From assembly GCF_000002075.1 (NCBI RefSeq), contig NW_004797294.1, positions 308,491 to 372,490 of the forward strand: a stretch of DNA of 64,000 nucleotides. Reading direction: 5' to 3'. The DNA is from Aplysia californica. Taxonomy: Eukaryota. Positions 38,312 to 64,000 of the stretch are shown here, piece after piece (position 1 is the first letter of the stretch; the number at the start of each line of letters is the position of its first letter). The notes under the pieces are model-generated. The model was not told where the DNA came from. It worked only from the letters and a program-made list of their open reading frames with translations, and did no database searches. Both the position numbers and the translations under genes were made by a program.

Positions 38312-40916
38312 GAAAGAGAGAGAGCGAGAGAGAGAGAGCGAGAGATAAGAGATATGTGTTTTATGTTGTTATATTGTTGATTAATAGGTACATGTGTTCG
38401 CATTATCTTTGAAATAAAATGAAATAATTATTCCCAGTATGGAAATACATCATGCAAACATAATCTACAATTATTAAGGGAGTCCCAAACAGTGTCGGAC
38501 TCAAAGGGATACAAAGTCCCTGCAGAATATCGCAGTCTACTCGATAAAAGTTCCCCGAACAAGGGAATTGAACACACGTCTTCAGCATGCATCTACTCTT
38601 GCACCATGCAATATCATAGCACAACGCATTTCAACGCCATATTATCATAGCACAATACCTTGCCTTACCATAGCATAACGTAATGAACAAAACTGTGTCG
38701 CATAATACCATACAATAGCACAATGCCTTACCATAGCATAATTTCATGCCATATCATAGCACAATGAAATACAGCAGCACAATGCCGTACCATAGCATTA
38801 TGTCAAACCACAGCAAAATGCAATACCATAGTACATGAACATACCATAGTACATGAACATACCATAGTACATGAATATACCATAGTACATGAACATGCCA
38901 TAGTACATGAACATACCATAGCATAATGAGATGACATACCATAACACAATGCAATATTATCATAGTGCACTACCATATCATGTCACAGTGTAATACCATA
39001 GTACACTACCATATCATGACACAGTGTAATACCCTAGTACACGACCATATCATGACACAGTGCAATACCATAGTACACGACCATATCATAACACAGTGCA
39101 ATACCATAGTACACGACCATATCATAACACAGTGCAATACCATAGTACACGACCATACCATGACACAGTGTAATACCCTAGTACAATACCATACCACAGC
39201 ACAATGTCACGTCAGACCATAGCACCCATGTCCTAGCACAAAACCACACCATAGCACAATGCTCAGCCAAACAATAGCGCAATACACACCATAGCACAAT
39301 GCTCTGACAAAAAATAGCACAATGCCATGCAATATCACAATGCCATACCATGGCACCACACCAAAGCAATAATATAAAATGCCAGACTGTAGCGCCTTTA
39401 ATGTGGCCTTTCCCAGGCCTTTACAAGTCTACCATTCTGGATACGCTTCATGGATTCCTGGTGCACTCTTCACCGTGAACTGTGTTATGGACGTCACAAA
39501 CTTCCCTTTCGATGAACAGATGTGCTCACTTCTTGTGTGTGGTAACTGTATATTGTTTTAGTTTAGTTGGAATGAAAGTTTTTACGGCAAATATTATAAC
39601 AAAATAGATCATACAAGTCTCGATGATCCCAGGTATTAAAAGAAAAAAGTTAGAGATAAGTACGATAGACTTTTGATAGGAACAAACTGCATCAGAGCAT
39701 CCACCAAACAGTCACTAGTATTATGTGAGTATACTAGATATTTTGGATAACGCTTCGGCTTTTGCCGTTTTAAAAATGCGCTTACAAGTTTCTATAAAAC
39801 AATATGGAGGAAGGGGGTAGTGAAGGGGGGGGGGTGCAGGTGGTGGTTAGAGAGCACTGTAGGCACAGTTTTGTTTGTGCACCATCATTACGTTCTTCTT
39901 TTCTTTTTCTTTTACTTTTTTCCTTCATTTTTGAGGGGTGAGGTGGTGTGGGGGAGGTAACAATTAGAGTCAATGTTCTTCACCTTCAGTCAGACATGAG
40001 CCAGTAAGAGAATTGCACATAAACCTGAAATCCTCTTTTGGTCTTTTGGTTTCGCTTTATAAATGTAAAATAATAGTAAGTAAGCTATTTGTTTGTAAGT
40101 ACTGCCCCTTAAGTAAACTAAAAACAGTCGGTGCAGGGGCAGGGGGGAGTTTCTCAACTTCTTTATTATTGGTAGTCAAATGGGTTGACCCCTCCCCTCA
40201 CCCCCACCCCCCATCCCAGTCCCCTGCTTTCCTCTTTCTCCCTCGAAATATAAAGCTAAACAGTTAACAGGCAGCAGGTTCTATACAATAATTACAGGTG
40301 TATAATATTCAAGAAAAGTATACGCCCCGATGTAAAATTCCTTGAAAGAAAAGAAAGTGGTGAAGGGCTGTGCAGAACGTGCTAGATGCCTCTTTTATAC
40401 CAACATTATTTCCAGAGTCTTCGGTCTCATCAAGTTTTATTGTTTCGCAAAGTGGTTCTCACAATCGTTCCCTAGGATATATACAAATAACTCTCTTTCT
40501 ATCTGACCTGTTTCGTCTTAACCTCTTTACTGTTTGAAGAGACCTCACAAAAGGGATGCGCAGTTTTAACTACAGGTGTTGACATAATTATTATACTTAA
40601 TAACTAAGTTAGTCAAAACAATTCTAAAATCGTCATCTTTACAATAATGTTATAACGTTTAAAATAACAGCTGTTCTCACAGAGCGACAGCCGCTAAGTT
40701 TGAATTGTTCAATAGCATTTATTATTTTTTTAAAATTGTTTTTGAAAACCAAATCTTGTTGTTAAATTTGAAGTATACACTCATCCCTTCCCTCNNNNNN
40801 NNNNNNNNNNNNNNNNNNNNNNNNNNNNNNNNNNNNNNNNNNNNNNNNNNNNNNNNNNNNNNNNNNNNNNNNNNNNNNNNNNNNNNNNNNNNNNAGATAG
40901 ATAGATACATAGATAA

Positions 40917-40951
<35 letters not shown>

Positions 40952-43587
40952 TAGAGAGGGGTGAGAGAGTAAGAGATATGTGTTTTATGTTGTTATTTTG
41001 TTGATTAATAGGTACATGTGTTCGCACGATCTTCGAAATAAAATGAAATGATTATTCCCTGTATTGAAATACATCATGCAAACATAATCTACAATTATTA
41101 AGGGTTTTTGGTCCGAAATTATCAAAGACTTATTTTTGTATTATGTGGTCCTATTTTGTCTTTTCCTCAGTCCCAAACAGTGTCGAACTCAAAGGGATAC
41201 AAAGTCCCAGCAGAATATCGCAGTCTCCTCGATAAAAGTTCCCCGAACAAAGGAATTGAACACACGTCTTCAGCATGCAACTACTCTTGCACCATGCAAT
41301 ATCATAGCACAACGCATTACAATGCCATATAATCATGGCACAATACCTTGCCTTACCATAGCATAATGTAATGAACAAAATTGTGTCGCATAATACCATA
41401 CAATAGCACAATGCCTTACCATAGCATAATTTCATGCGTACCACAGCACAAAGCAATATCATAGCACAATGAAATACAACAGCACAATGCCGTACCATTG
41501 TATAACGCCATACCACAGCAAAATACAATACCTTAGTACAATAACATACCATAGCATAATGTGATGTCATACCATAACACATTGCAATATTACCACAGTA
41601 CACTACTATATCATAACACAGTGCAATACCATAGTACACTACCATACCACAGCACAATGCTCTGCCAGACCAAATCACCCATGTCCTAGCACAATATCAT
41701 ACCATAGCACAATGTTCTGATAAACAATAGCACAATACCACACCTTAGCACAATGCTCTGCCAAACAATAGCACAATATCACACCATAGCACAATGCTCT
41801 GCCAAACAATAGCACACCATAGCACAATGCTCTGCAAAAGAATACCACAATGCCATACCGCGGTACCACACCAAAGCAATAATATGCCATGCTAGACTGT
41901 AGCACCCTTAATGTGGCAATCCTCAGGCCTTTACAAGTCTACCAGTCAGGATACGCTTCATGGATTCCTGGTGCACTCTTCACCGTGAACTGTGTTATGG
42001 ACGTCACTAACTTCCCTTTCGATGAACAGATGTGCTCACTTCTTGTATGTGGTAACTGTATATTGTTTTAGTTTAGTTGGGATGAGAGTTTTTTCGGCAA
42101 ATATTATAACATAATAGATCATACAAGTCTCGATGATCCCAGGTATTAAAAGAAAAGAAGAGTTAGAGATAAGTACGATAGACTTTTGATAGGAAAAAAG
42201 GAACAAACTGCATCAGAGCACCCACCAAAAAGTCACTAGTATTATGTGAGTATACTAGATAGTTTGGATAACGCCTCGGCCTTTGCCGTTTCAAAAATGC
42301 GCTTACAAGTTTCTATCAAATAAGATGGAGGAAGGGGGTAGTGGAAGGGGGGGGGGGGAGAGCAGGTGGTGGTGAGGGAGCATTACAGGCACAGTTTTGT
42401 TTCTGACCATCATTTCGTTTTTTCTTTTCTTTTTCCCTTACTTTTTGTTTGTTTTTCTCTTACTTTTTTCTTTCGTTTTTGAGGGGTGAGGTGGAGGGGG
42501 GAGGGGTGGGAGGTAACCGTTAGAGTCAATGTTCTTCACCTTCAGTCAGACATGAGCTAGTAAGAGCATTGCACATAAACCTGAAATCTTTATTTGGTCT
42601 TTTGATTTCGCTTTTTTAAAGTAAAATAAAAGTAAGTAAGCTTTTTGTCAAAACAATTCTAAAATCGTCATCTTTACAATAATGTTATAATGTTTAAAAT
42701 AACAGCTGTTCTCACAGAGCAACCGTCGCTAAGTTTGAATTGTTCAATAGCATTTATTTATTTTTTTAAATTGTTTTTGAAAACCAAATCTTGTTGTTAA
42801 ATTTGATCTTTTCATGACTCTGACTATGCACTCATCCCCTCCCTCCCCACTCCCCCTGTGAGCCCCAAATACCCACCCACCTGCGGTACCTTCATTTGTC
42901 GTTCTTTTGTGTGTGTCTATTTCCAGTTCTTCAGCATGTCTCATCCCCAAAAAGAGGTCGTTTTCGTGTCCAACCAAACGACGGTGCGCACGGATTCTCT
43001 GACGCCACATGGGGAATGGGAAATCCGCGAGGCAACGATCAACGTTGATGGGAGCCAAATTCCTCAAGAGGGCTTGGCACCCATTGGAGTGAGGAGCTNN
43101 NNNNNNNNNNNNNNNNNNNNNNNNNNNNNNNNNNNNNNNNNNNNNNNNNNNNNNNNNNNNNNNNNNNNNNNNNNNNNNNNNNNNNNNNNNNNNNNNNNNN
43201 NNNNNNNNNNNNNNNNNNNNNNNNNNNNNNNNNNNNNNNNNNNNNNNNNNNNNNNNNNNNNNNNNNNNNNNNNNNNNNNNNNNNNNNNNNNNNNNNNNNN
43301 NNNNNNNNNNNNNNNNNNNNNNNNNNNNNNNNNNNNNNNNNNNNNNNNNNNNNNNNNNNNNNNNNNNNNNNNNNNNNNNNNNNNNNNNNNNNNNNNNNNN
43401 NNNNNNNNNNNNNNNAAACAATAAAAATGATTATGAAAATGATAATGATAATGATGTGTTTTAAAAAGATTGATAATGAAAATAATGAATTTTTTTCTAA
43501 AATCAATAATGATAATAATGATAATGAAAACAATAATAATATATGAACAAATACATATACGAGTGTATATTATATAAAATACATATA

Positions 43588-43655
<68 letters not shown>

Positions 43656-46600
43656 TATTAATATTAATATAAATTTGTATATAGTATATACAAGCTGCTG
43701 ATTGCACGAATTCAAAGCCTAACCAACTGACAAGATCTTTCCTTCCCATAGCCTGGTACATAATCCGCTGTAGATTCTGTCTCAATACGAGAATAATAGG
43801 CACGTTTTTGGAATAGGAGCAGGTTTCATAATTACTTTTAGTTTTCGAATTATTTTGCGTTATATACCTGTCGTCTACAGATTGTAGATGGTCGGAGAGG
43901 GCTACTGATAGATCCTGCTTTTTTCCTGTTCCTCTGTTGTTTCTCTCTGCCTGCCTGTCTTTTTTTCACCTGCGCTAAATGGCCATTATTGTGTTGACGT
44001 GCTTCTCTTTACTCAAACAAATATAATACCTTTCTTTCCCTCTCTTGTTTCTGTCCTTATTTTCACCTGCACTAAATGACCATCAATGTACATCTCTTTG
44101 TTCAAACTAACAAATTACCTCTCTTTCCCTCTCTTGTTTCAGTCTGTCTGTCTTATTTTCTCAGCACTAAATGGCCATTATTGTATCAATGTCATTCTCT
44201 CCCGTTCACACAAACAAATTACGTACTTTTCTTTCCGTCTCTTGTTTCTGTCCTATTTTTCCCCAACACTGAAGGACCACTATTGTGTTGATGTTCTCCT
44301 CTTTACCCAAACAAACAAATTACGTACTTTTCTTTCCCTCTGTTGTTTCTGCCTGACTGTCTCATTTTTCCCCAGCACTAAATGGCCATTATTGTGTTGA
44401 TGTTCTCCTCTTTACCCAAACAAACAAATTACGTATCTTTCCCTCTGTTGTTTCTGCCTGTCTGTCTCATTTTTCCCTTGCACTAAATGGCCATTATTGC
44501 AACGAAGTACTTCTCTTTGTTCCAACAAACGCCTACAGATCGTGCTCAAGCTCCGTAGACGGCCAATGTTCCTGTTCATGAACACTATACTACCCATCAT
44601 GGTCCTTTCCCTTCTCAACATCATGGTCTTTCTCATACCACATGATTCAGGAGAAAAACTTAGTTTTGGTAAGCACTTTTGACTGTTAAGTATGGTTACA
44701 CAGTAGTGCGAGGCAGATAGCATTTCCATTTTTGCGTAGCAATTATTAGATAATTCATCCCGGACGCGTTTCTGCATCACCGCCCACTGAGTTGATTGCA
44801 TTGTTTTTAGATCTCCAAGATCGTCGAAAGTGGGTAGCGTGGAACATAAACGCTATCTTTTTTCATAATGAATATAAGATCTTCACATTAAAACAAAAAT
44901 CACACGTTGAGGTCTAGGCATCGGCAGGCCAAGCACGGAGAGCAAGGGCGTGGACTCCTTAACATCCAATCAATCACTGGAGCACAGCTGTTCAAAAGTT
45001 AGATAACTACTCGTTTAGTTTAAATGGTCACTGGCTCGATCCATAGCGTTGCTTGAGAACTGAAGGAATTTGTCATAAAATTAAGTCACTCTTTTCTATT
45101 CAAATTTAGGTAACTTCTCTTTCAGATATGGTTATTGGATCATTCTATGGTGCTTGAGAACTGAAGCATTGCGTCAAAAATCGATTTATTCTTTTTCATT
45201 CAAAAGTTAGATAACTCCTCTTTCAAATGGTCACATGACCATTCTATAACGATGCTTGAGAACTGAATGAATAGGTCATGAAATCTATTCACTCTTTTCT
45301 AAACAAAATTTAGACAACTTTTCTTTCAAATGGTTACTGGCTCAATCCATTTCGGTGCTTGAGAATTGAAGCATTGCCTCATAAAATCTATTCATTTTTT
45401 AAAATTCAAAATTTAGATAACTTCATTTTGAAATAGTCATTGGTTTATTCCATAATGATGCTTGAGAACTGAAGGAAAGGGTCAATAAAATAATGGAAGA
45501 GGCTAGCCGTACTTAATGACGACTAGACTGGTTGGCTAGCTGTAAGTTAGACTGGTTGGCTAAGTACTGCTGGACAGCTGGGCTAGCCGTACTTATTCTT
45601 AATATGATGGCTAGACTGACCATACAAAAAATAGGCCTACTGAAATGTAAATATATTTTATTTTTTTTTGCAGTACCTAAAGTATTTGTATTTGAGACGA
45701 AACCAGGTGCCTTAATGACAGTGCATGTATTTTAAACCTCCTGTTTTCTAATGTTAATAGGACCTAAGATAAGTATGGCTAGACTGTCATGCTAGCCGTA
45801 CTTACTATTGATGGCTGAATTCTAAATACAATTTTTAGTTTACAATGCCTAAAGTATTTGTATTTGAGACAAAACCAAAAGGTGCCTTACTGACTTGCAT
45901 GTATTTGAACCTGAATAATCACTAGACCTAGATCTAATGCGACCTGTGTACTTAACAGGTTTGAGTCGATAGGGCCAAACCTAGATCTAAGTACGGCTAG
46001 CCACTTCGTAAAATAATGTCATACTAATTGACTCCCCCTGTAGGCTATCATTCACGTTGTGTTCCCCCCAGGCATCACCGTGCTCCTGGCCCTGACGTTG
46101 TGTCTAAGCATCACTAGCACAATGCTGCCTCGGTCTGCCACAGACATGGCTCTCCTTCTCATCTACGTCTCCATCCTCCTCGTCATCTCTCTCCTCACCG
46201 TCGTCGTCACTGTCATTGTCTCCTTCTTCCACTATAAAGAAGAGGTAAGTTTGCATAACGGGAAGTGTTTGTTACATGTACATGTCACTGTACCTTTTTA
46301 TTGTTAACTTGGTTTTTCTTTCTGTGTACCAGACTGTCGAGTTGTGTGTAGTTTTTATGTTTTTTAAAATTAAAAAGTAACATTATTGCTCTGTTTGTTT
46401 TGCTTTGTTGTTGTTGTTTTTTATAGTAGAGGGTTTTACGGCGCTTGCAATTGCATAAGGTCATATGAGCGCTCTTAGTTGGGGTTTTTTTGTTGTTGTT
46501 TCCTCTCAACTGAGTATTTGTTTGCCGTTCCTCTTTTATTGCCTTGTAGATTGAGCATTCCTTCGAAATGACAATAGGCAATACCAATGCATTCTAATGC

Positions 46601-47749
46601 TATGTTATATTTGTCTGTAATAGTGAAGTGTTACGTCCATATCGACACTATTTAGGTCAATAAGGAGGGGAGTTGCTTCGACCCTGCCTGTCAGGGCCAA
46701 CACGGGCTGAGGGGGAGGCAAGGTCCAATATGATATATGTGACTCGTGCTGACAAAATGAGTTACTTCTCGGATTCAGGCCGTTAAATGAATACATACAT
46801 CACACATATGGTATGGATGAAGTTGTTACAATTTATAAGCTTAAAATAAAAGGTATGTAATACTTAACGAATATGGCATCGATAAAAAATCTTAAAAATT
46901 TGACCCTTGTGTCAATTTTTGGGCAATGTCTCCATTTGTGGATGTCGAGAAGTAACTCGTTTTGTCAGCTCGCCTCACATATCGAGATACTAGATAAAAT
47001 TGAGCTCAATCCGTCTGTGTAGAATTGTAAAGTTCCCAAATGTTCCATTTCAGTCGCTCATATAATAGAACAGATGGAATACGTTCTCTATTTCTCCATG
47101 ACATTTTCGTTAAACATACCGAGGCAATGGTCTGGATAAAAGGTAGGACACAGAGCTAAAGAGAAAAATGCAACGAAGTATAATGGTCATTTTCACTTCT
47201 AATTTCTGTTTTGTCGAACCTTTATAAAAACGACAGCCCATTATTGAAGAGACAGGTGGTCATCTTAGACAGGTGGTTCTCTTGGACAATGTCATTCTAA
47301 TACGGAAATGACACAAGGCGGGGGGGGGGGGGGGGTAGGAAGTGTTAGTTTTTACAGTTTATCATCATTATTATTATTGCTATTATTATTCATTTTATTT
47401 TTTATCATTATTATGGTTGCTATTATTATTATCATTATCCTTTTCACAGAGGAAGGCCGTCAGTACTCAAGAAGAAACAGTGAGGCCTGTGGGATCGTTC
47501 CAGAGCGGGTCTGCCAAATCGACAGTGTCATCCGAGAAGCAAAAGAAAAGTGTCTATCCTGCACTAAAGCTACCAACAGACAGGGACGCAATTCCAGATG
47601 ATAACGATTCCCCTAAGCATTGCCACGGCTGGTCCTACAAACGGATAGCGAGATGGATAAATAACGTCTCCTGTGCTATCTTTCTCTTTGCCTGGTGTTC
47701 TGTCACTGTAATATTTTTCATCTTGCTTACTAGAAGTGTCCACACTTGA
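31235..47749 (+). CDS. Gene 2: divergent nAChR-like Cys-loop channel subunit, 8 exons, about 421-434 aa depending on start codon
   Basis: Preferred join(31235 or 31274..31390,34052..34186,35078..35208,41927..42044,42927..43088,44539..44668,46072..46244,47450..47749), open, GT-AG, same phases as gene 1. MKKIIPMVYLCFLTVSSQTYEQ; VYNPEVRP; WNESEYGG; Cys-loop CVMDVTNFPFDEQMC; PHGEW; LRRRPMF; DSGEKLSFGITVLLALTL; M4 RWINNVSCAIFLFAW. Confidence 0.92.
33153..33506 (-). mobile_element. tRNA-derived SINE family B, full length and young-looking, with (TTA)n tail
   Basis: Minus-strand head ggggcgtcggtggcctagtggttagg...gggttcgaatccc, core ttgtgtccttgggaaaggcacttta, tail gcgctatacaaatgctatctattattatt. Related fragments near 29800-29862, 32480-32620, 35690-35815, 43690-43765 and 60125-60320. 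Confidence 0.88.
33553..34038 (+). pseudogene. Broken partial duplicate of gene 2 exon 2, interrupted by a ~390 bp antisense retroelement (33586-33974)
   Basis: AG|GTGAGACCCATTGACGAC start identical to exon 2. The insertion is flanked by a degenerate 15 bp TSD (cagggcagtgttctg / cagggaagtgtgctg). Exon-like sequence resumes (FYLICIVGLDDV) and joins the acceptor of the intact exon. The same structure is repeated at 36416-36912. Confidence 0.8.
36926..39534 (+). CDS. Second copies of gene 2 exons 2, 3 and 4 (36926..37060, 38055..38185, 39417..39534), probably the alternate haplotype
   Basis: Intact splice sites and identical exon lengths (135/131/118 nt). Only two amino acid differences from the other copies (KDAYA vs KDDYA, VYHSG vs VYQSG). 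The block 35539-40794 is bounded by two gaps of exactly 100 N. Confidence 0.75.
38600..39390. repeat. ACCAT/AGCAC/AAT-based cryptic satellite upstream of exon 4 (also 41290-41890, 55410-55575, 56630-56820)
   Basis: Recurring accatagcacaat motif. This copy contains extra ~18 bp and ~36 bp sub-arrays. Confidence 0.85.
43920..44530. repeat. Diverged ~90-110 bp tandem repeat abutting gene 2 exon 6, with a homologous shorter array at 60790-61110 in gene 3
   Basis: Recurring cactaaatggccattattgtgttga...caaacaaacaaattac...ttccctct...gtttctg. Confidence 0.8.
44985..45480. repeat. Diverged tandem repeat, ~102 bp x 5, gene 2 intron 6
   Basis: gcttgagaa recurs near 45051, 45152, 45254, 45357 and 45460. 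Confidence 0.85.
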
Positions 47750-52425: not shown

Positions 52426-53145
52426 CCTCCTAATGTTGCCTAATGCTGGAGTCAAAACACAAAAGCAGTGCAATAAAAGTTTTTGAGCACCCCTCCATTT
52501 GGTATGTACACAACTATGTGGTGAGTGGACTCCCACAGAGCTACTCAAATGTGTCGGTACACTAATAGTTAGAAACGGTACAAAGTTTCATTATACTTTC
52601 TGCCAAAGACCACATACTTTACAAAAAGGCAAGTCAACAAAGCGCTCTAAGGCCATTATAGGAAACTGATTCCATGAAACCACAGTTCAACGAGAAGTTA
52701 CATAATATTAAATGACGCTTGTGTTTCCGTGGTGGATACCTCCAAAATGGGAGAGGAGAGAGGAGGGGTAGAGAGAGTAGAGAGCTACAGAAAGAGACAG
52801 AGTGGGAAAGNNNNNNNNNNNNNNNNNNNNNNNNNNNNNNNNNNNNNNNNNNNNNNNNNNNNNNNNNNNNNNNNNNNNNNNNNNNNNNNNNNNNNNNNNN
52901 NNNNNNNNNNNNNNNNNNNNNNNNNNNNNNNNNNNNNNNNNNNNNNNNNNNNNNNNNNNNNNNNNNNNNNNNNNNNNNNNNNNNATCCGGTCAACCTGTT
53001 CAGGCCATTCCAGAAACTGGTTGGGTTCAAACGGGTCATAGTCCGTACTAGAAGAGGCAGGGAATCTGTGGAGTCAAATCTATAAAAGAATGTTTTCTTT
53101 AGATGAAGTTTGTATTTCTGTGCCTTAGTCAAATTTTTGTTCATT

Positions 53146-54909
53146 ATGAAGAAAAGTATACCGATATTATATCTCTTCTTCCTATCTGCCTCAGCGCAGA
53201 CATACGAACAAACCAAAGCACTTTACGACGACAAACTTAGCCCAAGTGTTTATAACCCAGACGTGAGTACCTACCACTGTTAATATTATTACTCTGCCTT
53301 GTCATTAATACAATAAATACTAATACTAATAATCAAAAATAGTATTTTTCAACAGGCTCCAAACCGGGACAATACACCTCTAGACCCGTTACAATACCGT
53401 TATCTTGACACAACATATTTGTCGTGTATAACATACAAACATACGATCTTTTAATTAACGCTAACAAATAATAAGCAGAGATTGTATCTGTACTGTCACA
53501 ACACATTCAAATGCCATCTTCACATCACACTGTGAACATAAAAGTATTATGAATAAGAAGGGCTCTCTATAAAAATAAAAAAAAAATATATATATAGTCT
53601 GATGTATTATGCGTTTAGCTGAATTTATAATCGTTAGATTCCTCGTCTTGTGTTCATTTAGCTTTTTTTTCTTCAGCAAGCTTTTTTATGTCAGAGCCAG
53701 ATCTTCTTTAGCGAATGCTCTCTTCTCTCTTTGTTGATAGTTCATCATGGTCACTTTTTTTGCATTGTGTTTTACGGTTTCAGGTGAGACCTACTGACGA
53801 CCAGGCTAGTGTACTGAAGGTGCAAGTTTACTTTACTTTGATGTACATTGTTGGTCTTGATGACGTCACTGCAACATTCACCTGTAACGGTTTTCTCAGA
53901 CTGAGCTGGTTTGATCAGGTATAGTAAAATAACTTTACATGTTGCCAGACATTGTTCATATGCTTGTTTATTTGCTTTGATATATATTTATATAATTGCA
54001 GTTTCTTAATTTGTGGGATTGGTTGCATGTGTTCAGGAAACATTTTGTCGAAATTCATATTCTAAATGTTGAAGTATAGAAAGCCTTGTGCGAATTCTAA
54101 AATATTATTTAACTTAAATGTTTTGTTAGTTTTGTTTGTTTTTTCTTTATTCATGCTTTTTCCTTTGTTTTCCTTCTTGGAAAGGGGGGGGGGGTGAGAG
54201 TTGGAGAGAGAAATGGGGGAGGAAGGCTGGGGGGGGTTCTTAATGCTTTTGTTCCAGTTTTTTTCCTTTGTTTTTAAAATGTGCGCGTGTGTGGGAGGGG
54301 GTTGGGGTCATAGACGTTACAATTTTGATTCCCACCTCTTCAGTTTCTCTTCAGAGTTGGCCAGGCCACATTAAACCTATTCCTTACAAGTCATACAATT
54401 GTCTTGTTTTTGGTTGATTCGTTGCAAACTTGCAGAAATCGAGGATCCACGATGTTAGTCCTTGTTTTTTTATTAGTATTAAAATTTTCATCTAACTCNN
54501 NNNNNNNNNNNNNNNNNNNNNNNNNNNNNNNNNNNNNNNNNNNNNNNNNNNNNNNNNNNNNNNNNNNNNNNNNNNNNNNNNNNNNNNNNNNNNNNNNNNN
54601 NNNNNNNNNNNNNNNNNNNNNNNNNNNNNNNNNNNNNTGTTGGCATTCAGTTGTTTGTTTTCTTAATTGTTTGTTTGTTTTCCTCCAAAGCGTCTAACTT
54701 GGAACGAAAGCGAATACGGCGGTGTTACAGTTATTCACCCGAAGCCTCAACAAATCTGGAGACCTCGGGTTATGCTTCTAAACACGGTTGGAGAAAGAGA
54801 CATCTTTAAGGATGATTTTGTGTGAGATTTTCATTTGTTTTGTGTTATGCTTAAGGTTCTGTTTAGGGAAAGGTGGTGGGGGTTGAGATAGGAGCATATG
54901 TAGAGAAAT

Positions 54910-54965
<56 letters not shown>

Positions 54966-56092
54966 TGAGAGACATACCACAGCACAAAGTGTTTGTTTAA
55001 GTAAGATTTTACGGCGCCACAAGTGCATAAGGCAATAGAGCGCCAAGGGGTTGAAGACAACAGAGAAGTCCATACGGAAAATCAGGCTTACTTTGCTCAC
55101 TTCTCTAGCCTCTACAGCACAAAGTCTGCTTTGACTATGAAGGCACCCCGGAAATAGCAGATCACAAGATAGTGACAAACAAGTAGAAGAGGTAGAGAAA
55201 AAAAATGACGATAGTAAGGATGGGGAAAGAAAAAGCAGCAATTCCCCCTATGTTGTTCCAGCACAGCATTAGCATAACATTGATAAATCAGCCCATTTAC
55301 AATTCTACTGTGCTTAAGAACATGTTAATATCTCCCCTTTTGGGAATGGCCTAAAGACACTTCAGTCAGTAGCACTGCACTGGGTGGGTAGGGGTTGGAG
55401 GGGGGCGTAACACAATACCAGACCGTGGTACCATGCCACAGTAATTACTAATAATGTTATGCCATAGTACATTGCAATACCAACACTTCCATTCCATTGT
55501 ACTATACTACAGCGCTATGCCATACCATAGAACAATACTGTACACACCATATCATAATGCTGTGTTACCATAGCACCCTCAATGTGGCCATCCACAGGGC
55601 AGTATATCGGAACAGCGTAGTTTTCAAATTTATTGTACTGAGAACAATAGGGAAGGTATATTGGAACGGCGTATGTATCGCCGACAGCAGTTCAGGGAGG
55701 ATTACTTTAGGAATGAGAAAGATAAACCCGATTATTGCAGATAAATTTGTCCTTGTTTGTAGCGGGTTATCAACTCGAATCTTTTTTTTTTCATCTTTCC
55801 TGTCAGCTTTGCGCTTTCTGTTCGTTGTCATTTTCATCTTGAGGATGATTCACGTGACTTTACGGACACTTGTACACAACACGGGACACATTATAGTAAG
55901 TACTGGTAAAGTGCGGGACTTCTTACTGCTGTCTTTCAGCCACACCCCTGATCTTCAGGTAGGAAAGATCTACACCTAGCCTTCTCGGACAANNNNNNNN
56001 NNNNNNNNNNNNNNNNNNNNNNNNNNNNNNNNNNNNNNNNNNNNNNNNNNNNNNNNNNNNNNNNNNNNNNNNNNNNNNNNNNNNNNNNNNNN

Positions 56093-56131
<39 letters not shown>

Positions 56132-59100
56132 AAGAGAGAGAGAGAGAGACAGAGAGACTGAGAGAGAGACAGAGAAAATGAGAGACATACCATAGCACAA
56201 TGTGTTTGTTTTAGTAAGATTTTACGGCGCTCACAAGTGCATAAGGCAATATGAGCACCAAGGGGTTGATGTCAACAGAGAAGTCCATACGGAAAATCAC
56301 ATCACCCTTACTTTGCTCACCTCTCTAGCCTCTACAGCACAAAGTCTGCTTCGACTATCAAGGCACCCCGGAAATAGCAGATCAGAAGAAAGTGACAAAA
56401 AAGCAGAAGTAGAGAAAAAATGACGATAGTAAGGATGGGGAAAGAAAAAGCAGCAATTCCCTCTATGTTGTTCCGGCACAGCATTAGCATAACATTGATA
56501 AATCAGCCCATTTACAAGTCTACTATGCTTAAGAACATGTTAATATCCCCCTTTTTGGGAATGGCCTAAAGACACTTCAGTCAGTAGCACTGTACTGGGG
56601 GGGGGGTAGGGGTTGGAGGGGGTGGGCGTAGCACAATACCAGACCGTGGTACCAAACCACAGTATTTACTAATAATGTTATGCCATAGCACATTGCAATA
56701 CTAACAATGCCATTCCATTGTACTATACTACAGCACTATGCCATACCATAGAACAATACTGTACACACCACATCATAATGCTGTGTTACACGAGAGGGAA
56801 CAGCCATACCATAGCACCCTCAATGTGGCCATCCACAGGGCAGTATATCGGAACGGCGTAGTTTTCAAATTTATTGTACTGAGAACAATAGGGAATGTAT
56901 ATTGGAACGGCGTATGTATCGCCGACAGCAGTTCATGGAAGATTACTTTAGGAATGAGAAAGATAAACCCGATTATTGCAGATAAATTTGTCCTTGTTTG
57001 TAGCTGGTTATCAACTCGAATCTTTTTTTTCATGTTCCCTGTCAGCTTTGCGCTTTCTGTTCGTTGTCATTTTCATCTTGAGAATGATTCACGTGACTTT
57101 ACGGACACTTGTACACCACAGCGGGACACATTATAGTAAGTACTGGTAAAGTGCGGGACTTCTTACTGCTGTCTTTCAGCCACACCCCTGATCTTCAGGT
57201 AGGAAAGATCTACACCTAGCCTTCTCGGACAAGAGCGAAAAATCTCGGAGAGCCCGTGTGCAAGTTGCGCACGTTAAAGATCCCTGGTGGTCTAAAATCG
57301 ATAAGAGTAGGCTTCGGCAGCCACCCGGGAAAAATTCAAAATTTTCTACCAACTAAAAATATTAGGAGTGTCCCGCGCGCTCATGTGACCTTATGCAGTT
57401 GCGAGCGCCGTAAAACACTTTACAAAAACAAAAAGTGCGGGACTCGTGACTCGCAAGCAGAGAAACATACACACTAAGTATTCGGTCGATTTAATGTGCA
57501 AAATTGAACCTACTATGTAGTATTCGACTATCATGATCAAAGAGACGTATGCGCCGTTACTATAACAAAAATTATGCCGTTCCGACATATTATGCCATTA
57601 CGTATTTACGCCGTTCCGATAACCTGCCATCCACAGGCCTCTACTAGTGGACAAATCAGGATACGCTTCATGGATTCCGGGCGCACTCTTCAACGTGCAC
57701 TGTGAGATGGACGTGACCAACTTCCCTTTCGATGAACAGACGTGCACACTGGAGGTGTGAGGGAACTATACTTTTTTTTTCTTTTGGTTTTTGATTTAGT
57801 ATTAGTACGAGTTTAACTGCAAAATGCAACACAATTGATTATATTATTATAGTTGTCGAAGATTGCACGTATTTCAAGTGCGTAACTTGTAAAGAAAAGG
57901 AGTACGATAGATGTTTGGTAGGAAACAACAGCGAACCACAGTAGAGCACACACTATTCTGAGTGTATACAAGGAAACGTTGGATAACGCTTCGGACTTTG
58001 CCATGTTTAATTTATTTACCAGTTTCCTAAAAATATCATGGAGAAATCTGGCGATTTTTCAATTATTTTTTAATATATATATTTTTTATTTTTTTTGGGT
58101 GGAGGACACGGTTGTTAGAGGGCACTACATGCACAGCCATCTATTCTCTTAACCAGATATGTATTTTCTTTTGATAAGATATCATATAATTTACTATTAG
58201 TGCCCGAATGCTTCCTCTTAAGTCTTTAGTAAAATGAAGTTAAAGCAGTCAACAAAAAGCAATGAACTAAAATCTGAAAATGAATTCACTCTGCCTGTTT
58301 TGCTTAACTATGTAAAAAAAAAAAAGTAAACTATTAGTTTCAAGGTACTGAAATTCAAGTCAAACATTAATTAACTAAAAGCAATGGATACGAGGATGCA
58401 TTTTCCAACTTCTTTTTCTTTTATTAGTTATATGATTCACAACCTGTATTATTTCATCATGGAAACGTATAAATGAATGAGCGTTTTCAGTGACATGGGC
58501 TGACGATCATAAATACTGAAAAAATAATACACTTATTTTTAAAAAGGATAAAACTACAAACTCTCTTTCTCTCTGACTAGTTTCGTCTTAACCTCTTTGG
58601 CGTTCGAAGAGCTTCACAGAAAGGAAGCTGTATAGCTCAAAAGGTGTTTTCATGGCTATAATATTTTAAAACTTGGTGAATCAATTACTTCTAAAGAAAG
58701 TATCAGATAATCAAAATAAATGGGCTATTCTCTGCGAACAACAGTCACTAAAATTCAAATTGGTTAATGGCATAGTATTATTACATAATGCACTTTTGTT
58801 ATCGAAAACCAGATTCATTGCTAAAAAGTTAGGTATCTTATCCTGACTCTGACGACACGCCCCCCCCCCTCCCTGCGCCCCACATCCCACTCAACCTTCC
58901 ACTGACCCCTTATTTCTTTCTTCACTCCTATATTATTCAGTTCTTCAGCATGAACTATATACTTGCTGAGGTCGAGTTCGTTTCCGAGACAACCACGGTG
59001 TTTACGGGCGTCCTGAAGCCCCACGGGGAATGGGATCTTCTCAACGCAACAATCATCGCTTATGGAAGTAAACTTTCGGATGACAACTTGGCACCCATTG

Positions 59101-59310
59101 AAGTAAGGAACAATCAGGAACATAGGTCAACAGGTTGTCAATGTGCNNNNNNNNNNNNNNNNNNNNNNNNNNNNNNNNNNNNNNNNNNNNNNNNNNNNNN
59201 NNNNNNNNNNNNNNNNNNNNNNNNNNNNNNNNNNNNNNNNNNNNNNNNNNNNNNNNNNNNNNNNNNNNNNNNNNNNNNNNAATGATAATAATAATAAACA
59301 GATTAGTAAA

Positions 59311-59376
<66 letters not shown>

Positions 59377-62300
59377 CGAAACAGTAATAATAACAACGAT
59401 AAAGACGATATNNNNNNNNNNNNNNNNNNNNNNNNNNNNNNNNNNNNNNNNNNNNNNNNNNNNNNNNNNNNNNNNNNNNNNNNNNNNNNNNNNNNNNNNN
59501 NNNNNNNNNNNNNNNNNNNNNNNNNNNNNNNNNNNNNNNNNNNNNNNNNNNNNNNNNNNNNNNNNNNNNNNNNNNNNACAATAATAATAATATGTAATAG
59601 TCATAATGATGATACTAACGATAATTCAACGATAATAATAACAACAGTCATAATAATGATATTAGTAGAAATAGTAACACAATATGTAATAATCATAATA
59701 ATTCAATGATTATAAAAACAATTTTTAAAAAAATATTGTTAATAAAATNNNNNNNNNNNNNNNNNNNNNNNNNNNNNNNNNNNNNNNNNNNNNNNNNNNN
59801 NNNNNNNNNNNNNNNNNNNNNNNNNNNNNNNNNNNNNNNNNNNNNNNNNNNNNNNNNNNNNNNNNNNNNNNNNNNNNNNNNNNNNNNNNNNNNNNNNNNN
59901 NNNNNNNNNNNNNNNNNNNNNNNNNNNNNNNNNNNNNNNNNNNNNNNNNNNNNNNNNNNNNNNNNNNNNNNNNNNNNNNNNNNNNNNNNNNNNNNNNNNN
60001 NNNNNNNNNNNNNNNNNNNNNNNNNNNNNNNNNNNNNNNNNNNNNNNNNNNNNNNNNNNNNNNNNNNNNNNNNNNNNNNNNNNNNNNNNNNNNNNNNNNN
60101 NNNNNNNNNNNNNNNNNNNNAAACAATTATTGTTTATTAGCCCAAAAGACCCTAAAACACTCAGAACATTATCGGCCTCCCAAGAAGCATACAGTGCAAG
60201 CTGCAGATTGCATGCGCTCAAACACTACCAGATTGACAAGATCTGTCAATAGCCTGGTGCACAATCCAACCTAAGTGAAATGAGGGAAATTCCTGTAAAA
60301 TTCCTTTCGCAAGGATACAAACTGACTGCTACTGATCTAGATCTAGATATAACCGTAACTATTTCAAATTTAACATTGGGAAATGTTTCATCAAAGTATA
60401 AATGAAAAAGCAAAGGAACGGGAAAAAGGGAGTAAAAGGGTTGGGGTGGGGGTGGGTGTATAAACATTTCCCCCAAAAATAAACTGTAACTATAATTTAT
60501 ATTGTTTTTTGTTACATGGCGGATATCATTTTTGTAACTATTGTCAACATGACAATGTAGTAACCATGCTTCAANNNNNNNNNNNNNNNNNNNNNNNNNN
60601 NNNNNNNNNNNNNNNNNNNNNNNNNNNNNNNNNNNNNNNNNNNNNNNNNNNNNNNNNNNNNNNNNNNNNNNNNNNNNNNNNNNNNNNNNNNNNNNNNNNN
60701 NNNNNNNNNNNNNNNNNNNNNNNNTGATTTTACCTTGTATTTTTTTTAAACAGTTCACCGATTAAAGGTGGTTGGAGCACGCTATTTATAGATCCTACTT
60801 CTTTTCTTTCCTTCCTTTCTTTCTGTCTGTCTTGTCTTATTATTCCCAGCACTATAGACCGTTACCATGCCGATGTGTGTCAATTTATTCAAACAAACAG
60901 ACTTCTTTTCATTCCCCCTGTTATTGCCATCTGTCTGTTTGCCTCATTTTTTCCAGCACAAAATAACCATTATTGTGTCACTGTTCTTCTCTACCCAAAC
61001 AAGCAAATTACGTCTCTCTCCCTCTGTTGTTACTGTCTGTCTTATTTTGCCTAGCACTAAATGGCCATTATTATGTCGATGTTTTCCTCTTTAATAAAAC
61101 AAACAAACGCCTACAGATCGAGATCAAGCTCCGTAGACGGCCAATGTTCCTGTTCATGAACACTATACTACCCATCATGGTCCTTTCCCTTCTCAACATC
61201 ATGGTCTTCCTCATACCACAGGAATCAGGAGAGAAACTCAGTTTTGGTAAGCACTATTGACTTTGTTATTTAAGTATTGTCAAAGATCTTTCATAACAAG
61301 ATAGTTCACTCGGCCAAAAAAAGTGTCCGCGGAAGTCCACGCATTGGTTCAGAAGGCGCTGATGTCTTTGTTTTGAAGCTCTCTTTCGTTTCTACAGAAG
61401 AAGAATAGGAAAAGCATAGTTTGTTAGTTTCGCTTTCCATTGTTTTTCACACAAGTAGGGTAACTCTGTTCGCAAAGTCCGCATCTTTTAGAAGAGGGCG
61501 CCGCCGGATTTTTAAGGACACTTTTTTAAACTGGCTCAAAGAGAGGAGTGAACTATTTTGTTATGTACGATCTTTGGGTTTTTTTAAGCTGTGGTGCGAG
61601 GAAGACGGCGATTCAATTCTTGCGGAAGGATGTTATATTAATCGAGTATCCCAGTATGCTTGAAACCTTCTCAGTCTGGGCTGGTCGTCGAACTATTTTC
61701 TGTATTATAACGTAAAGTATTTGCAACCACTTACTGACTACGATAGGCTTGTTGTCGTTGAAAACAAAAGAACATAGACTAGCCTGGATATGGCAGTATG
61801 TGCAACGGCAGCCCGTGACCGTGACAGATGGAGTGTCATTACACCTCACCCTGTGAGTCAGAGATTACGCCTCCGGGTATCCAGGTATCCAGGTATCCAG
61901 GATGCCACTGACTGCCATTGATGTGTAGTTTACCGCGAGCTGACTTGGCAATTGCCATGTATCGCCAGAATCAAGGTATCCAGGTTGTAAGCAACTGCCA
62001 TTGATGTGTAGTTTACCTCGAGCTGGCTAGGCAATGGCCATGTATCGCTAAAATCAGTTCTAGGTAATGCATGTCAGTGACCACAATGGGAAGTATTTCA
62101 AGCATATACAACAGCAAACGGCATCAAGATACCAAGGAATTGTGTGAGAGTGGGTGGGGGGAGGGTTGCAATAAAACAGAGTGTGTTGATTTCTAGGGGT
62201 CGGGGAGGGGAGGGGAGGGGAGGGGAGGGGAGGGGTGATTGGCTAAAATATATATCTAATGAATAAGTATTGGTGAAGGAAGAGGAAAAATACTCTAGTT

Positions 62301-63576
62301 ATGTCACATGGTGAAATCAAGTCGTCGTTCTTCTTTCTTTAATAGAAGTTGAGATATTTGCAATCGAAGGTGAAAGTCAACTGCTGTTAGAGAAAGAATA
62401 AGTGAGAAAATGGCTACAAAATGTTAGTGGCTTCCAGAGCTTGAGCGTCCTAGGAAGCTGTAAATTTACCTAAAAAGTGTGTATGCCTTTGATCAGCGTC
62501 AGTAAGTAGAATCCATACAGAAATGTGTATGTGTATTTTGACATGGACATTAATGATGTTCAAAAATTTGTAAAAGTTTATCAGAATTTTCCAACGACCG
62601 GAAAAAATGCCGGTGTCTTCGATTTCATTATTATGACGAGAGACTGATTTCACCACGATGCTACACAAATATTCCCTTTGTTTCTCACAGGCATCACCGT
62701 ACTCCTGGCCCTCACGTTGTGTCTAAGCCTCACTAGCACAATGCTGCCGCGGTCTGCCACAGACATGGCTCTCCTTCTCATCTACATCTCCATCCTCCTC
62801 GTCATCTCCCTCCTCACCGTCATCGTCACTGTCATTGTCTCCTTCTTCCACTATAAAGAAGAGGTAAGTTTGCCTCACAGAGAGCATTTTTGAATTTTAA
62901 TGTCAACACATCTGTTTATTGTAAACGTCCTGATGTGTTTATAATTAACATACTTTTGAAAAAGGTATCTCTTATGTGATTTAACTCGTTTTCTTGTTTC
63001 ATATGAAATGTTTATGCTTTTATGTTGTATGTGTGAAGATTTTCTCTCAGTAGTCACGCCACGTAAAGCACTCAGAGAGTACTCTTGTGTGGGTTCGAGT
63101 TTTATACAGATGCAGGCTATTATTGTCATCGNNNNNNNNNNNNNNNNNNNNNNNNNNNNNNNNNNNNNNNNNNNNNNNNNNNNNNNNNNNNNNNNNNNNN
63201 NNNNNNNNNNNNNNNNNNNNNNNNNNNNNNNNNNNNNNNNNNNNNNNNNNNNNNNNNNNNNNNNNNNNNNNNNNNNNNNNNNNNNGTCGGTAGACTAAAA
63301 GAAAAAATGAGCCCCATCAGACCGTCCTGGAAAGCCTCCTCCAAATCGTCAGTGGCATTCGTGAACCAAGAGAAATGTGTCTATCCCGAACTGAAGCTAC
63401 CTATGGATATGGACGAAATTCCAGATGAGAACTATTCCCCTAAGCATTCCCACGGCTGGTCCTACAAACGGATAGCGAGATGGATAAATAACGTCTGCTT
63501 TGCTATCTTTCTCTTTGTCTGGTGTTCTGTCACTGTACTATTTTTCGTTTTGCTTACTAGAAAATCCCACACTTAA
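53146..63576 (+). CDS. Gene 3: divergent nAChR-like Cys-loop channel subunit, close paralog of gene 2, 8 exons, about 421 aa
   Basis: join(53146..53262,53784..53918,54691..54821,57637..57754,58941..59102,61117..61246,62691..62863,<63286..63576). The last acceptor and about 3 codons fall in the N gap. MKKSIPILYLFFLSASAQTYEQ; Cys-loop CEMDVTNFPFDEQTC; ESGEKLSFGITVLLALTL; M4 RWINNVCFAIFLFVW. Confidence 0.92.
54990..55400 (-). mobile_element. ~400 bp non-LTR retroelement 3' fragment sharing its tail with SINE family A (also at 33586-33974, 36449-36847, 56205-56625)
   Basis: Four homologous copies begin with the reverse complement of the family A tail (ttttacggcgctc...gcataaggtcatatgagcgc) followed by a different body. 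Confidence 0.7.
56839..57628. mobile_element. Non-autonomous DNA transposon (MITE) with 22 bp TIRs and 8 bp TSD ATCCACAG at the gene 3 exon 4 acceptor
   Basis: Left end ggcagtatatcggaacggcgta; right end tacgccgttccgataacctgcc (2 mismatches to the inverted left end). TSD copies at 56831-56838 and 57629-57636. A partial duplicate starts at 55598. Confidence 0.88.
57161..57431 (+). mobile_element. 5'-truncated SINE family A copy nested in the MITE
   Basis: Matches the 3' half of 19414-19942. 13 bp TSD aaagtgcgggact at 57148-57160 and 57432-57444. Confidence 0.88.
61281..61576. mobile_element. Shorter, inverted copy of the same MITE family in gene 3 intron 6
   Basis: TIR caaagatctttcataacaagatagttcactc / gagtgaactattttgttatgtacgatctttg. 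The body is the reverse complement of 24703-25197. Confidence 0.8.
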
Positions 63577-64000
63577 TAATATTATGGTTGGGGCAAAAGA
63601 TTGCTAGTCTACAATATTGAAAACTGCTTCTCCCGTATAACTTTGGGAAAGAAATAACAAGAAACTCCAGTTGTTACGTTTTTTGTTGTTGTTTTTCCTC
63701 TTGGAACTGCGCTATCGCTGGAACTACAATACAGCTCTCTTAGAATGACAGGGGTCCAACTTCCACTTTTCCTAGAACTGAGTTACACAGGACACATTAC
63801 TAAAACATATGCCCTGCACACTGTGTCCAACACAGGAGAAAGTCTGACCTGTATAATTTTTTGTACAGTTTCATGAAGACGTAAAACCATTTTAGCGAAA
63901 AGTGTATGAATTTTAAATCCAATTTTCTTAAAACTATGTATCATGGAGTTACAATAATTGTGTCATTGTACGTGCGCGATGTGTGGGGTATACTGGAGCC

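What the first reader, a model, noticed from the sequence alone, without database searches (positions are those of the whole stretch)
56831..57754. DNA transposon inserted exactly at the Cys-loop exon acceptor; its TSD regenerates the splice site
The ancestral context aatgtggccATCCACAG|gcct (compare gene 2 aatgtggcaatcctcag|gcct) is split by a 790 bp TIR element. The duplicated target ATCCACAG contains the acceptor AG, so exon 4 keeps an AG whose upstream context is now transposon TIR. The original acceptor with its native upstream sequence survives 798 bp upstream, in front of the element. Competing acceptors could give a productive transcript or a transposon-exonised non-productive one (inference). 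An 8 bp TSD with GG termini or a 10 bp TSD both fit, suggesting Merlin or Mutator type.
Basis: seen in the sequence. Interest (0 to 1): 0.7.

Follow-up and report, generated by a model that had tools for sequence, protein, structure and literature searches.

The report
Old Mutator insertion duplicated splice acceptor
An old cut-and-paste transposon fragment sits exactly on an intron-exon border of an acetylcholine-receptor-like gene and copied the splice signal to both of its sides; the gene, present in two copies that both carry the insertion, has kept its reading frame, so it likely splices at the copy next to the exon, a known and ordinary way for such an insertion to be tolerated.

Summary
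In detail: a TIR element at 56839-57628 is flanked by an 8-bp duplication that contains the exon-4 acceptor AG. Other family copies share the termini but not the flanks, so the TSD is real. Corrections: (1) 284 of the 790 bp are a later nested SINE; the element proper is about 506 bp. (2) A longer family copy carries a broken FLYWCH-type transposase, so Mutator/MULE, not Merlin. (3) The insertion is old: it predates an inverted duplication of at least 85 kb (about 6% intron divergence), both gene copies carry it, and three further DNA samples hold the junction. (4) The best-scoring rival acceptor lies inside the element (57046), not at the orphaned native site; all five alternative splice forms translated hit a stop. 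Both copies keep open frames (pN/pS 0.35, p=0.0005; no coding indel where about 12 are expected), so splicing at 57637 is likely, but no RNA junction read was obtained. Known precedents: the dog merle allele and introners. This scan noted the same arrangement in four other genomes. Ordinary; low interest.

The parts
53146..53262 (+). Cys-loop gene 3, exon 1 (ATG, signal-peptide-like start)
   Evidence: open frame, GT donor; one synonymous difference to the second copy
53784..53918 (+). exon 2
   Evidence: Neur_chan_LBD, below cut-off
54691..54821 (+). exon 3, phase-2 donor GTGAG; lies on the piece that probably belongs to the second gene copy
54902..55992 (+). copy A: duplicate of intron 3, orphaned acceptor (AG at 55596-55597) and left half of the element, ending at a 100-N run; likely the piece missing from the gap of the second gene copy
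   Evidence: 4.1% substitutions to copy B; 17-nt overlap with the start of the second copy's sequence
56831..56838 (+). left TSD copy; orphaned native acceptor with native upstream intron
   Evidence: alignable with acceptors at 39417 and 41927
56839..57628 (.). non-autonomous Mutator/MULE-like deletion derivative, about 506 bp without the SINE; three blocks match a 2189-bp family copy (L070) whose broken transposase runs antisense to the host gene
56839..56860 (+). left TIR
   Evidence: I2
57046..57135 (+). candidate cryptic 90-nt exon inside the element (T-rich acceptor, GTAAGT donor at 57136); its junction with exon 4 would read TA|G, a stop. Use not shown
57148..57444 (+). nested 5'-truncated SINE with 13-bp duplication (57148-57160 and 57432-57444); absent from other family copies; a longer copy at 19.4 kb has a weak tRNA-like head
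   Evidence: D8; E=0.047, under the gathering score
57607..57628 (-). right TIR; supplies the new upstream context of the acceptor (yUnAy match with A at 57608, 90 nt free of AG)
57629..57636 (+). right TSD copy, regenerated acceptor AG of exon 4
57637..57754 (+). exon 4 with the Cys-loop (C-x13-C)
   Evidence: (PF02931, E=7e-10); identical in the second copy
58941..59102 (+). exon 5 (no vicinal cysteines; most non-synonymous differences per site between the copies)
61117..61246 (+). exon 6 (M1)
62691..62863 (+). exon 7 (M2-M3)
   Evidence: (PF02932 over cut-off)
63286..63576 (+). readable part of exon 8 (M4, stop); its start is not readable in the window

Best explanation
A Mutator/MULE-family DNA transposon derivative is inserted between the AG and the first base of exon 4 of a nicotinic-receptor-like gene, its 8-bp target duplication leaves an AG on both sides, and the gene likely splices exon 3 to the copy at 57637, so that the whole element is removed with intron 3 and the protein is unchanged. 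Shown: termini, TSD, family, nested SINE, presence in both gene copies, open reading frames. Inferred order: insertion (internal deletions before or after), then SINE insertion, then an inverted duplication of the gene cluster, then about 3% divergence per lineage. Inferred mechanism: the last 11 intron bases are the same at both sites (the TIR ends in GCC like the native intron), the right TIR supplies a branch-point-like TTTAC 29 nt upstream and 90 nt without AG, and only this acceptor pairs with the exon-4 donor; the upstream sites lead to stops and would be minor, decayed or removed by nonsense-mediated decay.
For: TIR/TSD geometry. Right-end pattern: 11 genome matches at <=1 mismatch, 0 in the control; left-end pattern 4 matches, 0 control (two of each are this insertion). 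Of 4 other copies with both ends, one has an exact 9-bp TSD, one a 9-bp TSD with one mismatch, two none. FLYWCH E=1.7e-7, over cut-off, in the 2189-bp copy; its downstream frames match genomic relatives at E=8e-14 and 7e-14, one of which hits Pfam MULE at E=0.0012, below cut-off. Second gene copy has the same right junction; copy A has the same left junction. Between the copies: 329 codons, 21 synonymous and 25 non-synonymous differences, pN/pS 0.35, Fisher p=0.0005, no gap, no stop; 57 gaps in 4620 aligned intron bases predict about 12 in 984 coding bases, 0 seen. Window copy alone: 418 readable codons without a stop, where about 5 disabling changes are expected if neutral since the duplication (P=0.007). 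All five alternative splice forms translated give a stop. DNA contigs of three further samples bridge element and exon 4 (57598-57851).
Against: No junction read was obtained, so use of 57637 is inferred only. Polarised with the neighbouring gene as outgroup, the window copy has 7 synonymous and 11 non-synonymous changes (ratio 0.46, P=0.09; 0.68 if 5 unresolved changes are its own) against 13 and 9 for the other copy (0.20, P=0.0003): constraint is clear for the second copy and weaker for the window copy. pN/pS of gene 3 is higher than in neighbours (0.04-0.17 on other exon sets; 0.23 without exon 8). The new acceptor ranks only 8th of 51 YAG sites in a crude score built from 27 partly redundant acceptors. 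Gene conversion (210 identical bases around exon 4; near-identical 3' exons with gene 2) could keep frames open without expression. The neutral indel rate is taken from introns and may overstate the coding rate.
Confidence: 0.75

Rival explanations
1. Splicing is substantially split: the element adds a poison exon (57046-57135 or 56839-57135, donor GTAAGT) that lowers or regulates output of the receptor subunit.
For: 57046 is the top-scoring acceptor in this intron and lies 90 nt before a GTAAGT donor; both signals persist in copy A (89 nt, frameshift); inclusion gives a stop in both versions. The dog merle allele shows graded use of such sites (PMC7349775, passages).
Against: Both signals also occur in other family copies, so they need no selection; the exonic side of the donor is poor (ATA); introns hold many high-scoring unused AGs (three of the top four lie outside the element's ends or in another repeat); no transcript shows it.
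Confidence: 0.14
2. The window copy is a silent or recently relaxed duplicate; only the second copy is functional, or the insertion has weakened both.
For: Lineage-specific ratio 0.46-0.68, not significantly below 1.
Against: No stop, frameshift or lost splice site in the window copy. The second copy carries the same insertion and is clearly constrained, so the rescue argument stands for the insertion itself.
Confidence: 0.1
3. The two versions are alleles of one locus that the assembly placed twice, not paralogues (the splice mechanism is the same either way; the insertion would then predate the split of two very divergent alleles).
For: Pieces of one version sit inside the other at 100-N runs and are missing from gaps of the second region.
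Against: Both versions appear in each of three further DNA samples (diagnostic letters at 57502, 57518, 57571, 57589); 9% synonymous divergence; the arms are inverted, about 310 kb apart, and the 100 kb fetched inside each arm do not mirror each other; the outer end near window 7912 lies in gap-free sequence. Contig depth is only a hint.
Confidence: 0.12
4. The element is a Merlin (IS1016-like) transposon.
For: GG termini and 8-9 bp TSD fit the recalled Merlin description; the genome has 70 PF12762 matches.
Against: The family's long copy encodes FLYWCH and MULE-like frames; no blastn or tblastx match to the 20 of 70 PF12762 loci fetched.
Confidence: 0.03

Closest known systems
Canine merle allele (SINE-Cf at PMEL intron 10/exon 11; PMC7349775, passages read)
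   Same: Insertion at an intron-exon boundary; the TSD (15 bp there) contains the acceptor; original and cryptic acceptors can compete.
   Different: Merle is a retroposon, polymorphic, with length-dependent cryptic splicing and a phenotype. This is a DNA transposon, old, in both gene copies, with no demonstrated alternative splicing.
Introners that co-opt the 3' splice site from their TSD (PMC9860276 and PMC11282704, passages read)
   Same: An AG in the TSD serves as acceptor next to a TIR element.
   Different: Introners land in exons and create a new intron; this element only lengthens an existing intron and uses the host donor.
FLYWCH-bearing MULEs, e.g. the Phantom group (PMC6446971, passages and Table 1 read)
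   Same: TSD within the 8-11 bp MULE range, short TIRs within the 14-500 bp range, FLYWCH finger ahead of the transposase in the long copy.
   Different: No intact transposase was found; no tree was built, so the subgroup is not assigned.
Tandem nAChR expansions of molluscs (PMC6896357, passages read)
   Same: Tandem cluster of nAChR-like genes, lineage-specific duplication.
   Different: This cluster is intron-rich (8 exons) and lacks the vicinal cysteines; ligand unknown. The passages seen do not discuss transposon insertions at splice sites.

Membership tests
Mutator/MULE | terminal inverted repeats | tested here: met
   22-nt arms, shared by family copies
Mutator/MULE | TSD of 8-11 bp (PMC6446971) | tested here: met
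   8 bp here; 9 bp exact in one and 9 bp with one mismatch in another of 4 two-ended copies; none in two
Mutator/MULE | zinc finger (FLYWCH) ahead of the transposase in the parent element | tested here: met
   PF04500, 31.8 bits, cut-off 23.6, in L070; not retained in the window copy
Mutator/MULE | MULE DDE transposase domain (PF10551) | tested here: inconclusive
   L070 frames are broken and give no direct Pfam MULE hit; they match relatives (E=8e-14, 7e-14, 0.001), two of which hit PF10551 below cut-off (E=0.0012, 0.12)
Merlin/IS1016 | GG termini and 8-9 bp TSD (recalled, from no call) | tested here: met
   not diagnostic
Merlin/IS1016 | IS1595-type transposase (PF12762) | tested here: not met
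   no PF12762 hit in five L070 frames; no match to 20 of 70 PF12762 loci
Introner | insertion in an exon creates a new intron | tested here: not met
   the intron position is shared with uninterrupted paralogues
Introner | splice site co-opted from the TSD and used in mRNA | tested here: inconclusive
   AG present in the TSD; no junction read
Introner | many family copies form introns | not tested
   gene context of the other copies was not examined; family is low-copy
Cys-loop receptor subunit (host gene) | ligand-binding domain with C-x13-C plus transmembrane region | tested here: met
alpha-type nAChR subunit (host gene) | vicinal cysteines in loop C (recalled) | tested here: not met

The most novel reading that the evidence does not exclude
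The fixed element works as a regulatory switch: its internal acceptor and GTAAGT donor define a poison exon that ends in a stop in both gene copies (TA|G at the junction in one, frameshift in the other), tuning the level of an orphan, possibly sensory, Cys-loop subunit through nonsense-mediated decay.
Probability: 0.06. Interest if true: 0.55.

Novelty: new member of a known kind. Interest (0 to 1): 0.22.

Why it matters
It is a tidy, datable example of a transposon surviving at a splice junction because its target duplication rebuilds the acceptor, with evolutionary rather than transcript evidence that the gene stayed functional. It offers a natural three-acceptor test of 3' splice-site choice in an invertebrate, but the principle is already established (merle, introners). 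It would matter more only if regulated poison-exon inclusion were shown.

Tried and rejected
RNA: no RNA holder was listed by the run search. Three raw polyA runs and one contig set were laid on 52990-64000: depth was 0 in the bins of exons 1, 5 and 8 and at most 0.7 in the exon-3 bin; signal came from repeats; none of the 15 joints shown (18 not shown) was an exon junction. This is uninformative for splicing and no evidence of silence. In one search one contig of run X12 ran unspliced from the element through exon 4 into intron 4; none of the 21 loose ends shown (13 not shown) was an empty site or an exon-3 join; contigs show presence, not absence. Protein search with exon 4 among longer proteins found no candidate, so no transcript-derived protein could be checked. 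Idea that the right TIR was remodelled into a better acceptor: rejected, the left/right asymmetry is a family trait, except that the G third from the end was not seen in the other right ends printed. Idea that the orphaned acceptor lost its branch point (TTAAT in gene 2, TCAAT here): weak, cannot be ordered relative to the insertion. 10-bp TSD and Merlin readings rejected (above). No intact autonomous partner found. Literature searches for this exact arrangement: (0 papers); supplements were not opened.

Full report
Observation. The sequence at 56831-57754 is as described. ATCCACAG stands at 56831-56838 and 57629-57636, and 22-nt inverted arms (91% complementary) start and end a 790-bp interval. 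Exon 3 ends in phase 2 and joins 57637 in frame. Two uninterrupted paralogous acceptors in the window (39417, 41927) align with the sequence left of the element, which fixes the empty site. An exact 8-mer flanking the arms has a chance near 1.5e-5 under equal base frequencies.

The element. Genome searches with each arm returned 24 and 15 matches; pattern scans gave 11 right ends and 4 left ends with 0 in controls (lower bounds, two of each belong to this insertion). Other copies stop at the same termini and have unrelated flanks, so ATCCACAG is target, not element. Of four other two-ended copies one has an exact 9-bp TSD, one a 9-bp TSD with one mismatch, two none. In register with the family termini the TSD here is 8 bp; 9 bp is possible if one terminal base was lost; the total direct repeat is 12 nt. 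The window copy differs from nine other family copies by 7-12% in the right arm, similar to the mean 8.8% among them, so the family is old. A SINE with a 13-bp duplication interrupts it at 57148-57444; without it the element is 506 bp. The longest relative (L070, 2189 bp) holds frameshifted frames on the strand opposite to the host gene: a FLYWCH finger over the Pfam cut-off and downstream frames that match other genomic elements at E about 1e-13, some of which hit Pfam MULE below cut-off. Nothing matched 20 of the 70 IS1595/Merlin-type loci. MULE TSDs are 8-11 bp and FLYWCH occurs in several MULE groups (PMC6446971, passages). I file it as a non-autonomous MULE derivative; the catalytic-domain test is inconclusive.

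The host gene. Eight exons encode a signal-peptide-like start, a Neur_chan_LBD with C-x13-C, and a Neur_chan_memb region; 418 readable codons contain no stop; vicinal cysteines are absent. It lies in a tandem cluster of at least five such genes, as is common in molluscs (PMC6896357, passages).

Age and spread. The cluster is present twice on contig C24, inverted, from window 7912 to beyond +94 kb against C24:793-718 kb; the 100 kb fetched inside each arm do not mirror. Introns differ by 285 of 4620 aligned bases, 6.2%. The second gene copy has the same right junction and the same SINE. The window also holds a second left junction (copy A, 54902-55992, 4.1% from copy B) whose end overlaps by 17 nt the base where the second copy's sequence resumes after a gap, so copy A, and exon 3 with it, probably belongs to the second copy and was misplaced; the apparent third acceptor at 55597 is then an assembly effect (inference). 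Contigs of three further DNA samples each bridge element and exon 4 (57598-57851) and each show both versions of the right arm. No empty site appeared in the rows shown, but contigs cannot prove absence. The order insertion, SINE, duplication follows from nesting and sharing.

Which acceptor is used. Direct evidence is lacking: three polyA runs had essentially no reads on the exons, and one contig of uncertain kind was unspliced. Indirect evidence: since the insertion predates the duplication, constraint between the copies is constraint after the insertion. Over 329 codons pN/pS is 0.35 (p=0.0005), with no gap or stop; about 12 gaps (5.5 if only frameshifting gaps outside simple repeats are counted) would be expected from intron rates. 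By lineage the second copy is clearly constrained (0.20, P=0.0003) and the window copy less so (0.46, P=0.09), though about 5 disabling changes would be expected in it under neutrality and none is seen (P=0.007). Conversion between copies could contribute (210 identical bases around exon 4). All five alternative forms translated give a stop: 56839 reads 98 codons to a TAG; splicing 56839 or 57046 to the donor at 57136 creates TA|G at the junction; the SINE mini-exon and the copy-A forms shift frame. A functional gene therefore most likely uses 57637. Locally, the last 11 intron bases are identical at both sites, the right TIR offers TTTAC with its A 29 nt upstream and 90 nt without AG, against 22 nt at the native site. 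A crude tract score from 27 cluster acceptors gives 1.0 (new), -0.4 (orphan), 6.8 (57046) with real acceptors ranging -5.9 to 6.9: it cannot decide use, but it moves the most plausible competitor inside the element.

Comparison. The arrangement works like the dog merle allele, where a 15-bp TSD contains the acceptor (PMC7349775, passages), and like introners that take their AG from the TSD (PMC9860276, PMC11282704, passages); it is not an introner because no new intron arises. Five searches for this arrangement in print returned no paper on this locus in their listings; PMC12130899 was searched by passage without a MULE mention. Earlier notes of this scan describe the same geometry in coral, sea urchin, insect and shark genomes; they are unchecked and not counted as support.

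Verdict. Real, correctly located, mechanistically ordinary: an old MULE fragment tolerated at a splice acceptor. Confidence in distal-acceptor splicing 0.75; interest 0.22.

Noticed in passing
window 7912 to beyond 64000; G000:C24:718000-793000: The whole Cys-loop gene cluster is duplicated as an inverted block of at least 85 kb with about 6% intron and 9% synonymous divergence; gene models here probably mix pieces of the two copies.
   Followed up: partly
window 32329-42648: Exons of the neighbouring gene appear twice across 100-N runs, matching an 11-kb gap in the second arm; probably misplaced pieces of the other copy rather than exon duplication.
   Followed up: partly
L132 (G000:C24 near 736300): The exon-4 acceptor of another cluster gene carries a 20-nt tandem duplication including its AG, in the second arm only: a second duplicated acceptor at the same intron.
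   Followed up: no
window 56840-57133: The left end of the element is open for 98 codons in the frame of exon 3 (about 0.3% of Markov shuffles for one given frame); also open for 105 codons in L070 but not in two other copies read by eye; no Pfam hit. Probably chance.
   Followed up: partly
window 58941-59102: Exon 5 (ligand-side loops) has 7.5 non-synonymous and 4.5 synonymous differences between the copies while exon 4 is identical; possible divergence of ligand specificity.
   Followed up: no
window 44539-47746 vs 61117-63573: The transmembrane exons of genes 2 and 3 are 93-95% identical in protein while their ligand-binding exons are 52-79% identical, suggesting gene conversion of the 3' half.
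   Followed up: no
run X12 on window 57529-57807: One low-depth contig bridges the junction with 19 gap letters and several family-type letters in the right arm: a third variant lacking one subterminal repeat, or a chimeric contig.
   Followed up: no
G000: The genome has at least 70 IS1595/Merlin-type transposase matches, many without stops in the matched part.
   Followed up: no
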